From NCBI RefSeq assembly GCF_013167455.1, contig NZ_CP038328.1: 64,000 nt of DNA; one strand, given 5' to 3'. The position numbers are program-made. Below, piece after piece: positions 60,245-63,200 of this stretch. Position 1 is the first letter of the stretch. Each line of letters opens with the position of its first letter. This stretch comes from Escherichia coli O157:H7 (GTDB taxonomy: Bacteria > Pseudomonadota > Gammaproteobacteria > Enterobacterales > Enterobacteriaceae).

Positions 60245-63200
60245 TAGTGTCCTTCGTGGCTGTAGTAAAAGACCGGTAATCCCAGCTTAAGGCGTAGCGC
60301 CAGTAAGCGGGCAAAAAAGCCGAATACCAGGGTGGAGATAATTACCACATCATGGTTAGAAACATAGTGTTGCAGCGCGATGTACAGCACGGCGGAGGCA
60401 AATGAGACACCGGCATACAACTCTTTCTGGAATACCAGTGGGATACGTTTACAGAACATATCGCGCAAAACGCCGCCAAACACGCCGGTGGTTACCGCCG
60501 CGACAACGGCAATAATTGGGCCGTGCCCCATATCCAGTGCAACCTGTGCGCCGATGATAGAAAAGACCACCAGTCCAAGCGCATCGAGCACCAGAAACAC
60601 TTTGCGCAGGTAAGGCATTACAGGAGCAACGATAGTGGTGAGTACTGCGGCGGTAGCGACGATAATCACATATTCCGGGTGTTTGACCCAGCCGAGCGGA
60701 TAGTGGCCCAGCAGAATATCGCGCACTGACCCTCCGCCAATTGCGGTGGCGGTCGCAATAATAATTACGCCAAATGTATCCATGCGGCGTCGCCCGGCCG
60801 CCAGAGCCCCCGTCATGGCTTCGGCAGTAATGCCAACCAAATACAAAATGTGTAACAGCATGGTTCTCTCCCTAAAAATCTGTCTGGCAGGGTAGCGATT
60901 TGTGCGTATTGTCACGATTGAGATTTTTTAAGGTGAGAGGAAATTGATAACTTGTAGTTATGTGAAATCGCTATTTTCTGTAGCGTAGATGCATTCTTCT
61001 GACTTCTTGTCTGAGAAAATGCATAAGAAAAAATAGGTTAAAATTGAGGGGTGGAAAAGAAAGGTGCAATGTTTAGCCATTGTGTTCACCGCACCTGGAC
61101 TTTGGCTTACGCATCGGGTATCTCAATCAACAAAAAGAGTTTTTAGTTTCTGCTATTTCTTCTCTGTAATTTTTACACTGTTTTCCAACTGCTTGATGCT
61201 GACCTGCGGGGTCGGCAACTCCTCAGGCATGGTTCCGCCAAGTTCCTGAATGGTTTGCCTCACCTTGCTACCCACATCAAAGTGTGTGGTATTAGCTTGC
61301 TGTTTTGAATTCACGCCATCCCGCTTGAGTTTTTCTTCTGTTTGGGTAGCTCGAAAGAGATTAGCCGCCAGTTCTGTTGAACCCATATGATCCAGGATCT
61401 TCTGACTCTTTTTCAGCCCCTTCAGTTGGTGGATGGCTTTCTGATCTAATCCACCATACAGCCCCTGGTAACCATGATTCTGAAATATGGCGAAATCAGT
61501 AGCTGTCGCTACCGCAGCTTGCTGTGCTGCCTCAACCAATTGTTTGTTATGTTCTTTCAACTCATTTCTCAGAAACAGACGCTTTTCGTCTTCACGAAGT
61601 TGCTTAAATGCTTCATCGTCAGCAAGCTCCTGCCGTCGGGTCTGGATAGCAAAATAAGTCTGCCCTGCCGCAATGACCGGTTTCGCAGGGTCGCCGTTTT
61701 GTACTACCAGGTAACAGGCATAGCGGGAGAGATGAACATCTTCAAGTTCTCGTTGAGCCCCTGAACCTAATACAACCATTTTGGTGGTTTCAACGAAATG
61801 GTCAGATGCAGCTTGATTGCTGGCTTCGCACGCTTGAGTCGCGCGGGCCAGTACCTTTTGAAAATTGCGCCAGTCCCGATAATCCAGTAACGGTGCCAAT
61901 TCTCTAGCTGACCAAAATTCTTGCCCTTCAGTGCCATAATGCCGTATTTCTTCAAAAGGTTGATGATGTTCGTTCATTGCCCACTCCATGTGATATCGAT
62001 TGCAAAGAAAGTAAATCTGTAACTGTATTTATATACAGTTGTGAGTATCTCACGTTCTCAGTGTGCTGGGCAAAAAAACATCACAAAATCTGGAGCAGGC
62101 ACGCAAAACAGAATTGAAGTTGCGGGGAAGAAAAATGCCGCTCTGTTTGAGTGGGCGGCATTTGTGAAGGCTGAAAAGTAAGAATTGGCGTTACGAGTTA
62201 TTCAATGTTGAATCTGCTCATTGAGTATCTGCATCAAAGGCTTGTCATTACTGGGATTTCTGTAATAACGATTTTTATTGTGTACATCCTTGTGTACACG
62301 GTTTTTTCAGGTGTGCCGCCGATATGGGAACTGTCAGGGCAAATATTCACCGGAATTTTTTCCAGGTTAACCGTTATCATTTTTCGGTTATCCGTTATGA
62401 AGCTGGTGGATGCTCTCCGATATGGGAATCCCCATAACGATACGTGATCCAGTGAAAAACAGCTTCCAGTAAAAGATTGCTCATGTGTTACAATCACCCC
62501 GAAGGCTTACAGGTATTACTCATTGCTGATTCCTTGTTATGTTTCTTTGGTGGCGTGCCGTAGTGTTATCACACTGCGGTTTTTTTTAGCCCCCAGCAAT
62601 GGCACTACACTTTTCGGGTAGTAACCTGCACTTTTTGTGTAGGGGGGTTACGAAATTTTCGTAAGCCTCCCGATCCCGCCCTGTTATCCGCCCATAGAAT
62701 TTTAAGCCGCCTGTAAGCCTGTATGACGTTTTCCGGTGAATGCTTGCCCCGATAGTGAACATTGCGCCAGAATGCGATTTAGCCCCGTTCCTGTGGATAT
62801 TTGAGCGTGAGCGCTGGTAACTGATTAGCGAGGTCGTTCCTGTGCTCTTGCACTTAACGGGCAACCGTGGGGGATTTGGGGGGGAATTTTACGAAATTTT
62901 CGTAGGTCATCCTCCCTGTTCCGGTGGGGGGGAGGTGTGGTCATTATGACCATCCCTACCGTAATGATGATTCACGCTTTGCTAAAGGTATTACGAAAAT
63001 CATAATACCTTCTGCTGGCGGTGTCCGGCTGCGCGGCCTGTTCGTCATGCTGCCGACTGATTCCACCAGACGACGGATTAATCCCCGTGGAGTTCTTACC
63101 CTGGCTGAAGAAAAGCACGAATCTGTTGTTTTTACTGGCGCGGTGTCCGGCTTGTTCTTGGCTAACCACTCCCTCCATACCTGGCTTTTTCCGGTTAACC

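What the first reader, a model, noticed from the sequence alone, without database searches (positions are those of the whole stretch)
62023..62038. Consensus LexA box upstream of dinD
CTGTATTTATATACAG fits CTGT-N8-ACAG and sits just upstream of dinD, a known SOS-regulated gene. It is an expected feature that gives a positional sanity check for the dinD start and strand.
Basis: partly seen in the sequence, partly recalled or inferred. Interest (0 to 1): 0.15.

Follow-up and report, generated by a model that had tools for sequence, protein, structure and literature searches.

The report
Known LexA operator of dinD
This 16-base palindrome is the well-known binding site where the LexA repressor keeps the DNA-damage gene dinD switched off until DNA is damaged; it is identical to the site in laboratory E. 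coli K-12, so it is an ordinary, expected feature.

Summary
CTGTATTTATATACAG lies at 62023-62038 and is the only CTGT-N8-ACAG in the window. On the dinD (minus) strand the full 20-mer is AACTGTATATAAATACAGTT (62040..62021). It ends 43 nt upstream of the dinD start codon (61977; CDS 61153..61977, minus). The window is E. coli O157:H7.

The core pattern alone is not significant (about 0.5-0.9 expected by chance). A 20-mer with 17/20 matches to TACTG(TA)5CAGTA is significant (about 0.005 expected; 0 of 100 shuffles).

Papers list the K-12 dinD box at heterology index 2.2, with 12-fold lexA-dependent induction. In O157:H7 EDL933, dinD rises 5.9-fold after ciprofloxacin.

The exact sequence around the box is in 3,165 of 5,426 complete E. 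coli genomes. Elsewhere in Proteobacteria the same 20-mer flanks LexA/UmuD-, YebG- and DinB-type genes.

Verdict: a known SOS operator, correctly read, of low interest. The transcription start was not established here.

Side observations: ISKox3 splits this box in about 220 genomes; O157 has a 16-kb island 180 bp upstream; the DinD N-terminal domain is strongly dimorphic.

The parts
62023..62038 (.). 16-bp LexA-box core. It reads CTGTATTTATATACAG on the + strand and CTGTATATAAATACAG on the dinD strand.
   Evidence: It is the only CTGT-N8-ACAG in the window.
62021..62040 (-). Full 20-bp SOS box AACTGTATATAAATACAGTT, matching 17 of 20 positions of TACTG(TA)5CAGTA.
   Evidence: 3 mismatches; 0 of 100 shuffles. 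(identical to K-12 at -63..-44). Consensus from PMC6590174. HI 2.2 from PMC11228462.
61153..61977 (-). dinD coding sequence, 274 aa, with a Bro-N domain at residues 10-105. This is the gene under control of the box.
   Evidence: NF008573, 501 bits; RefSeq annotation; Pfam Bro-N.
61984..61987 (-). Shine-Dalgarno-like GGAG, 6 nt upstream of the ATG at 61977.
   Evidence: Read directly from the sequence. It supports the annotated start over the ATG at 61989 listed.
62044..62073 (-). Candidate sigma-70 promoter (inference only): -35 TTGCCC at 62073..62068, an 18-nt spacer, and an extended -10 TGaGATACT with its hexamer at 62049..62044. The predicted TSS is about 62037, inside the box.
   Evidence: My own relaxed scan. 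The tool's stricter scan found no promoter here. These bases are identical in K-12. No TSS data were obtained.
62128..62163 (-). Terminator-like hairpin plus U-tract of the upstream gene yicC. It is retained in O157 and probably insulates the dinD promoter from upstream transcription.
   Evidence: dG -12.4 kcal/mol, z -3.3, 0 of 200 shuffles as stable. It aligns with the K-12 yicC-dinD spacer.
62198..62219 (-). 22-nt remnant or duplicate of the yicC 3' end including the stop codon. It marks the right boundary of the O157 island, beyond which (above 62219) similarity to most E. coli stops.
   Evidence: most genomes match only from query position 282, which is window 62219; alignment; island gene content.

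Best explanation
This is the SOS operator of dinD. In undamaged cells a LexA dimer binds the inverted CTGT/ACAG half-sites at 62023-62038. Binding blocks transcription initiation at the dinD promoter, which the site overlaps or directly adjoins. After DNA damage, RecA filaments on single-stranded DNA stimulate LexA self-cleavage. The operator is vacated and dinD (61153..61977, minus strand) is transcribed.

Shown here:
- The sequence, its position and strand, and its base-for-base identity with the K-12 dinD operator.
- Its conservation across E. coli genomes.
- Use of the same 20-mer next to SOS-type gene families in other Proteobacteria.

Taken from papers:
- A very good heterology index (2.2).
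- lexA-dependent induction in K-12.
- Ciprofloxacin and mitomycin C induction in O157:H7.

Inferred:
- The exact overlap with the -10 element or the transcription start.
- That the O157 island inserted 180 bp upstream does not alter this control.
For: - Sequence and position.
- Gene identity and start.
- K-12 has the identical 20-mer at -63..-44. The 220-nt intergenic region differs at only 5 positions, none of them in the box or in the candidate -35/-10.
- Conservation: the 136-nt promoter region is in 4,704 of 5,426 complete genomes, and the exact 41-mer around the box is in 3,165. The most divergent allele (92.6% identity) still keeps CTGT-N8-ACAG, with one spacer change.
- Literature: dinD is listed with a known SOS box and the consensus is given (PMC6590174). 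HI 2.2, 9.8-fold AZT induction and 12-fold lexA3 dependence (PMC11228462). Log2 fold change 4.47 at the transcript level and increased DinD in the proteome data after ciprofloxacin (PMC11002266). 5.9-fold in O157:H7 EDL933 (PMC11125564). Used as an MMC-induced SOS control gene in O157 Sakai (PMC2669165).
- Cross-taxon use: the exact 20-mer occurs in 96 genome stretches, almost all Gamma- or Betaproteobacteria. Their flanking ORFs include Peptidase_S24 (8), YebG (6), IMS (4), PHP (3), LexA_DNA_bind (2) and RmuC (1).
Against: - No binding, footprint or TSS data for this strain were obtained, and I found no accessible paper giving the dinD transcription start.
- The tool's promoter scan found no sigma-70 promoter at its threshold, so the geometry of repression is inferred.
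- The CTGT-N8-ACAG pattern alone is not significant.
- There is no deep phylogenetic footprint. dinD homologs in Klebsiella, Thiothrix and Neisseria lie in other contexts with no LexA-like site within 300 nt upstream.
- The species-level scan found no other genus with this box linked to dinD.
- Pattern matches can be non-functional: the rraA 'SOS box' with HI 11.6 did not respond (PMC3374874).
Confidence: 0.96

Rival explanations
1. It is a chance AT-rich palindrome with no regulatory role. dinD induction would then be controlled from elsewhere.
For: CTGT-N8-ACAG alone is expected 0.5-0.9 times per 64 kb. Consensus-like boxes can be inert, as with rraA (PMC3374874).
Against: 17 of 20 matches to the full consensus is expected 0.005 times per window, with 0 of 100 shuffles. 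The site is identical to K-12 at the same distance from the ATG. The core is kept even in alleles whose flanks have diverged. The published HI is 2.2, with 12-fold lexA dependence. The same 20-mer flanks SOS gene families in other taxa.
Confidence: 0.01
2. The box is a LexA site, but its target is a transcript on the + strand running into the O157 island, or island genes, and not dinD.
For: The site is nearly symmetric, so it could act in either direction. O157 has foreign DNA beginning 180 bp away.
Against: The box predates the island. K-12 and most strains have it with yicC directly upstream, transcribed in the same direction as dinD. On the + strand, only 46-aa and 80-aa mechanical ORFs start in the first ~170 bases beyond the box. 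The annotated island genes nearest the box run in the dinD direction.
Confidence: 0.01
3. The repression geometry differs from my best guess. The -10 element would be the TATAAA inside the box (62033..62028), so that LexA occludes the -10 hexamer itself. My best guess instead places the box over the transcription start, just downstream of an extended -10 at 62049..62044.
For: TATAAA matches TATAAT at 5 of 6 positions and lies in the spacer.
Against: No acceptable -35 lies at 15-19 nt from it; the best is 2 of 6. The upstream candidate has TTGCCC plus a TG-extended -10. Neither candidate passes the tool's threshold.
Confidence: 0.25

Closest known systems
E. coli K-12 dinD (pcsA) SOS box
   Same: The 20-mer AACTGTATATAAATACAGTT is identical, it lies the same 43 nt from the ATG, and the downstream gene and flanking promoter sequence are the same. 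This is the same element in another strain.
   Different: In O157:H7 a roughly 16-kb integrase-bearing island separates yicC from dinD, starting 180 bp upstream of the box. There are five single-base differences in the 220-nt spacer. The O157 DinD protein is only 84% identical to K-12 DinD, and the differences cluster in the Bro-N domain.
Other high-affinity E. coli SOS boxes (tisB HI 1.8, umuDC HI 2.1, sbmC HI 2.8, recN HI 3.5)
   Same: They share the CTGT-N8-ACAG architecture with an AT-rich spacer and a low heterology index (table in PMC11228462).
   Different: The downstream genes differ. The positions of those boxes relative to their promoters were not examined here.
LexA-controlled prophage antirepressors (coliphage 186 Tum, Salmonella Gifsy antirepressors). 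This comparison is recalled from memory and is a lead, not a test.
   Same: A gene is kept silent directly by host LexA through a box in its own promoter. DinD carries a Bro-N domain, and full-length DinD homologs occur in phage and satellite-phage records.
   Different: No homology between DinD and Tum or the Gifsy antirepressors was tested. E. coli dinD is chromosomal and lies outside any prophage in K-12. DinD homologs on mobile elements outside Escherichia lacked LexA boxes in the three cases examined.

Membership tests
LexA (SOS) box of the E. coli / Gammaproteobacteria type | Inverted repeat CTGT-N8-ACAG within the 20-bp palindromic consensus TACTG(TA)5CAGTA | tested here: met
   Exact core. 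17 of 20 positions of the 20-mer match. Consensus as given in PMC6590174.
LexA (SOS) box of the E. coli / Gammaproteobacteria type | Low heterology index. Binding has been reported for HI of 12.6 or lower. | tested here: met
   I did not recompute the HI because the matrix is not held. The sequence is identical to the K-12 dinD box, and the K-12 dinD box is listed at HI 2.2 (PMC11228462). The 12.6 threshold is quoted in PMC3374874.
LexA (SOS) box of the E. coli / Gammaproteobacteria type | Position overlapping or adjoining the promoter of the regulated transcription unit | tested here: inconclusive
   The box is 43 nt upstream of the ATG, on the correct side of the yicC terminator. A candidate extended -10 promoter would put the TSS inside the box. 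The standard scan found none, and no TSS data were obtained.
LexA (SOS) box of the E. coli / Gammaproteobacteria type | Physical binding of LexA protein | not testable with these tools
   This needs EMSA, footprinting or ChIP. From my own knowledge, binding to the K-12 dinD operator was reported by Lewis et al. 1994; that paper is not held in the library.
LexA (SOS) box of the E. coli / Gammaproteobacteria type | Downstream gene induced by DNA damage in a LexA-cleavage-dependent manner | tested here: met
   Met by literature look-up, not by experiment. K-12: 9.8-fold AZT induction, 12-fold reduced in lexA3 (PMC11228462). K-12 ciprofloxacin time course (PMC11002266). O157:H7 EDL933: 5.9-fold after ciprofloxacin (PMC11125564). 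lexA dependence in O157 itself has not been shown.
LexA (SOS) box of the E. coli / Gammaproteobacteria type | Conservation of the site in orthologous promoters | tested here: met
   Within E. coli, the exact 41-mer is in 3,165 genomes and the core is retained in the most divergent allele. Beyond Escherichia this is not met: homologs in other genera lack the box.
[quoted passage not shown] | Full-length match above the curated equivalog cut-off | tested here: met
   501.4 bits against a cut-off of 242, covering residues 3-278 of the 278-aa ORF. Bro-N domain present.

The most novel reading that the evidence does not exclude
Nothing about the box in this window is new. The most novel reading the evidence leaves open concerns the same operator in other strains. 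Its AT-rich 8-bp spacer is a repeatedly used ISKox3 target. ISKox3 has inserted at exactly the same position and in the same orientation in at least two allele backgrounds, and about 4% of complete E. coli genomes carry the insertion. It splits the two LexA half-sites about 1.3 kb apart and detaches dinD from its upstream promoter DNA. If that releases or abolishes LexA control of DinD, some lineages would have a rewired SOS output. DinD has been reported to modulate RecA (own knowledge).
Probability: 0.2. Interest if true: 0.35.

Novelty: already known. Interest (0 to 1): 0.05.

Why it matters
For the genome scan, this is a positive control. A reader without tools correctly recognised a textbook regulatory site. 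The site fixes the strand of dinD and favours the annotated start at 61977 over the longer ORF start. It adds nothing new to SOS biology. It does show that the dinD promoter and operator survived insertion of a 16-kb island 180 bp upstream in O157:H7, which fits the published induction of dinD by ciprofloxacin and mitomycin C in EHEC.

Tried and rejected
- Transcription start of dinD. I tried three literature searches ('dinD promoter'+LexA; dinD+LexA+ChIP+'SOS box'; 'PdinD', which returned only unrelated papers). A fourth search gave one irrelevant hit. I also tried the original dinD paper by DOI and a genome-wide TSS paper by a PMC id recalled from memory. None was available, so the promoter geometry remains inferred.
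- Standard sigma-70 scan of 61800-62600: no promoter found. My relaxed scan gives only candidates.
- First terminator fold used the wrong coordinates and was uninformative. It was repeated correctly.
- Phylogenetic footprinting beyond E. coli. Protein searches of phage and plasmid records found DinD homologs, but the Klebsiella, Thiothrix and Neisseria copies lack any LexA-like site upstream. The exact-pattern scan of 100,044 species genomes found the 20-mer 96 times, and the only copy linked to dinD was a contaminated MAG contig.
- ISKox3 specifically targeting LexA boxes: considered and rejected. Published ISKox3 direct repeats are generic 8-bp AT-rich sequences (PMC12057282).
- A second LexA site in the window: none has fewer than 6 mismatches. 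The LEE2/LEE3 region has only a half-site.
- My first flanking-ORF census missed minus-strand copies and was redone on both strands.

Full report
OBSERVATION. The + strand reads CTGTATTTATATACAG at exactly 62023-62038. It is the only CTGT-N8-ACAG in the 64-kb window on either strand. Taken alone, that pattern is not more than chance would give. Dinucleotide-preserving shuffles average 0.54 matches, and 43 of 100 shuffles contain at least one. An i.i.d. calculation gives 0.93. The site stands out because of the wider sequence. The 20-mer at 62021-62040 has only 3 mismatches to the published consensus TACTG(TA)5CAGTA (PMC6590174), and none of 100 shuffles reached that. The analytic expectation is 0.005 per window, and a CTGT core with an all-A/T spacer is expected 0.008 times. 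The next-best 20-mers in the window have 6 mismatches, and none keeps both the CTG and the CAG triplet.

WHAT IT SITS NEXT TO. The window is E. coli O157:H7, 100% identical to strain Rafaela_II over the 1,401-nt query (window 61100-62500). The neighbouring minus-strand ORF is dinD. It scores 501 bits against the NCBIfam equivalog NF008573, whose cut-off is 242, and it has a Bro-N domain at residues 10-105. RefSeq annotates it as dinD, 274 aa, which maps to window 61153..61977. The mechanical ORF list starts 4 codons earlier, at 61989. The annotated ATG at 61977 has GGAG 6 nt upstream, whereas the ATG at 61989 has no such motif. Read on the dinD strand the box is AACTGTATATAAATACAGTT (62040..62021), with 43 nt between it and the ATG. 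yicG and ligB follow downstream, as in K-12.

K-12 MG1655 has the identical 20-mer at the identical position, -63..-44 from the dinD ATG. Across the 220-nt yicC-dinD spacer the two strains differ at five positions, none in the box.

FUNCTIONAL EVIDENCE. All of it comes from papers.
- dinD (pcsA) is listed among E. coli genes with a known SOS box (PMC6590174).
- The K-12 dinD box is listed at heterology index 2.2, the third-lowest distinct value in that table. dinD is induced 9.8-fold by AZT, and induction is reduced 12-fold in lexA3 (PMC11228462).
- A ciprofloxacin time course shows dinD mRNA rising to log2 4.47, with DinD also increased in the paper's proteome data (PMC11002266).
- dinD promoter-gfp fusions have been used as SOS reporters (PMC3374874).
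- In O157:H7 itself, dinD is 5.9-fold up after ciprofloxacin in EDL933 (PMC11125564). It served as one of ten MMC-induced SOS control genes in Sakai (PMC2669165).
- Direct LexA binding and lexA dependence in O157 were not found and are inferred from sequence identity.

CONSERVATION. The 136-nt promoter region is present in 4,704 of 5,426 complete E. coli genomes. The exact 41-mer spanning the box is present in 3,165. In the most divergent allele sampled (92.6% identity, strain DA61218) several flanking bases differ, but the box changes at only one spacer position (AACTGTATATAAACACAGTT) and both half-sites are intact.

Outside Escherichia the picture differs. DinD homologs in Klebsiella pneumoniae (75% aa identity, between ibpB and a transporter gene), on a Thiothrix plasmid (after parB) and in Neisseria gonorrhoeae have no LexA-like site within 300 nt upstream. 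The box therefore belongs to the Escherichia yicC-dinD locus and not to the DinD family.

Conversely, the exact 20-mer occurs in 96 genome stretches, and those listed are almost all Gamma- and Betaproteobacteria. A census of the 116 ORFs starting within 150 nt of these copies found the following Pfam families:
- Peptidase_S24 (LexA/UmuD type): 8
- YebG: 6
- IMS (Y-family polymerase): 4
- PHP domain: 3
- LexA_DNA_bind: 2
- RmuC: 1
- Integrases with an N-terminal SAM-like domain: 10
The sequence is thus a generic high-quality LexA operator that other bacteria use for core SOS genes.

MECHANISM. The best-supported model is the standard one. A LexA dimer on the two half-sites blocks initiation at the dinD promoter. 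RecA-stimulated LexA self-cleavage after DNA damage then frees the promoter (mechanism as summarised in PMC3374874, and PMC6590174).

The geometry is inferred. The tool's sigma-70 scan found nothing at its threshold. My relaxed scan gives, as best candidate, -35 TTGCCC (62073..62068), an 18-nt spacer and a TG-extended -10 GATACT (62049..62044). That places the start near 62037, inside the box. An alternative uses TATAAA within the box as the -10, but it lacks a usable -35. Either way LexA would occlude RNA polymerase.

Upstream, a hairpin with a U-tract (62163..62128, dG -12.4 kcal/mol, z -3.3) is the yicC terminator. It is retained in O157 and should insulate dinD from upstream transcription.

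RIVALS.
- Chance palindrome: excluded by the statistics, the conservation and the literature.
- Control of a + strand or island transcript: unlikely. The box predates the island, and only 46-aa and 80-aa mechanical ORFs start on that strand in the first ~170 bases beyond the box.
- The only open point is which promoter geometry applies.

COMPARISON AND NOVELTY. This is the K-12 dinD SOS box in another strain, so it is already known. Interest is low. Its value is as a positive control for the scan and as support for the dinD strand and start.

SIDE OBSERVATIONS.
1. In O157:H7 a roughly 16-kb element lies between yicC and dinD. It encodes an integrase, a primase-like protein, an Icd-like protein, AntA/AntB, PerC-family regulators and a Q antiterminator, with an IS2 pseudogene. 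Its right boundary is at window 62219, marked by a 22-nt copy of the yicC 3' end.
2. ISKox3 (ISL3 family) is inserted exactly in the centre of this LexA box in 222-223 complete genomes. Its 8-bp target duplication equals the N8 spacer. About 220 genomes carry one junction type (ATATAAAT), and two New Zealand isolates carry a second (ATATAAAC) with different flanking SNPs. That makes at least two events at the same site and in the same orientation. Published ISKox3 repeats are 8-bp and AT-rich (PMC12057282), so a generic target preference is enough to explain it. No held paper mentions ISKox3 together with dinD.
3. O157 and K-12 DinD are only 84% identical, and 39 of the 43 differences fall in residues 12-83, the Bro-N domain.
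4. Database artefacts: 'UNVERIFIED' Campylobacter phage A11a holds K-12-identical yicC-dinD DNA (A18a gives an identical DinD match), and a 'Lentisphaeria' MAG contig ends in E. coli dinD.
5. Window positions 1 to about 42,800 are the LEE island at tRNA-Sec, which explains the 44.7% GC. A LexA half-site-like sequence lies near the LEE2/LEE3 starts.

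Noticed in passing
L004:3050-3120 and 4380-4420; L005:3040-3115 (other E. coli strains; equivalent to window 62027-62034): An ISL3-family ISKox3 copy is inserted exactly in the middle of the dinD LexA box. 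Its 8-bp target duplication (ATATAAAT) is the N8 spacer, so the two half-sites end up about 1.3 kb apart. The junction is present in 222-223 of 5,426 complete genomes. A second junction type (ATATAAAC, different flanking SNPs) occurs in two New Zealand isolates, one of which has dinD annotated as frameshifted. That makes at least two events at the same site and in the same orientation. No held paper mentions ISKox3 together with dinD.
   Followed up: partly
window 62220-64000 and beyond (L011:830-16990): O157:H7 has a roughly 16-kb integrase-bearing element between yicC and dinD. It encodes an integrase, a primase-like protein, an Icd-like protein, AntA/AntB, three PerC-family regulators, ProQ/FinO, SSB and a Q antiterminator, with an IS2 pseudogene. 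It is bounded at window 62219 by a 22-nt copy of the yicC 3' end. About 297 genomes share this junction.
   Followed up: partly
window 61729-61944 (dinD codons 12-83): O157 and K-12 DinD are only 84% identical, and 39 of the 43 differences fall within residues 12-83 (Bro-N domain). The remaining 190 residues are about 98% identical. This is a sharply mosaic or dimorphic allele and explains the two-piece BLAST hits in many genomes.
   Followed up: partly
window 62648-62664 and 62889-62904: Two copies of a near-palindromic TTACGAAATTTTCGTA motif lie about 240 bp apart in the island end. Each is preceded by a G-run. They might be an operator or a repeat of the island.
   Followed up: no
window 13989-14008: TACTGTATATATTATCCAAT has a perfect LexA left half-site and a degenerate right half (7 mismatches overall). 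It lies at the espZ/cesL (LEE2/LEE3) divergent starts. From memory, SOS control of LEE2/LEE3 has been reported in EPEC; that was not verified here.
   Followed up: partly
window 1-42830: The window contains the whole LEE pathogenicity island (espG, ler ... espF, with IS elements and an integrase) inserted at tRNA-Sec (window 42734-42828). This explains the window's low G+C of 44.7%.
   Followed up: yes
L008 (MG065691.1, 'UNVERIFIED Campylobacter phage A11a'); MG065686.1 (A18a, not fetched); L058 ('Lentisphaeria' MAG contig end): These public records hold E. coli dinD DNA. The A11a record (L008) is identical to K-12 over the 300 nt upstream of dinD. A18a gives an identical DinD match (84.3% over 274 aa) but its DNA was not examined. 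L058 is 100% identical to O157 DinD over 43 aa at the contig end. These are most likely contamination or chimeric assembly. In addition, several whole chromosomes (E. coli, Klebsiella, N. gonorrhoeae) are filed as plasmids in the plasmid collection.
   Followed up: partly
L006, L007, L010; phage hits H74-H87: DinD-family genes are widespread on mobile elements, including Streptococcus satellite phages, Zymomonas and Thiothrix plasmids, and uncultured gut phage records. The Klebsiella, Thiothrix and Neisseria copies have no LexA-like site upstream, so 'DNA damage-inducible' is probably true only for the Escherichia locus.
   Followed up: partly
Genome-contig scan; E. coli genomes counts: No Escherichia species representative was returned for the exact 20-mer, although the variant with C at position 14 was allowed. 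Also, 712 of 5,426 complete E. coli genomes have no match to the dinD region. dinD and its operator are therefore not universal in the species. The reason for the missing representative is unexplained.
   Followed up: no
L013, L016, L025 and other loci: In ten loci from other Proteobacteria, the ORF starting within 150 nt of the same 20-mer is a tyrosine recombinase with an N-terminal SAM-like domain (Phage_integrase plus Phage_int_SAM_4). From memory this resembles LexA-controlled integron integrases; that was not checked.
   Followed up: no
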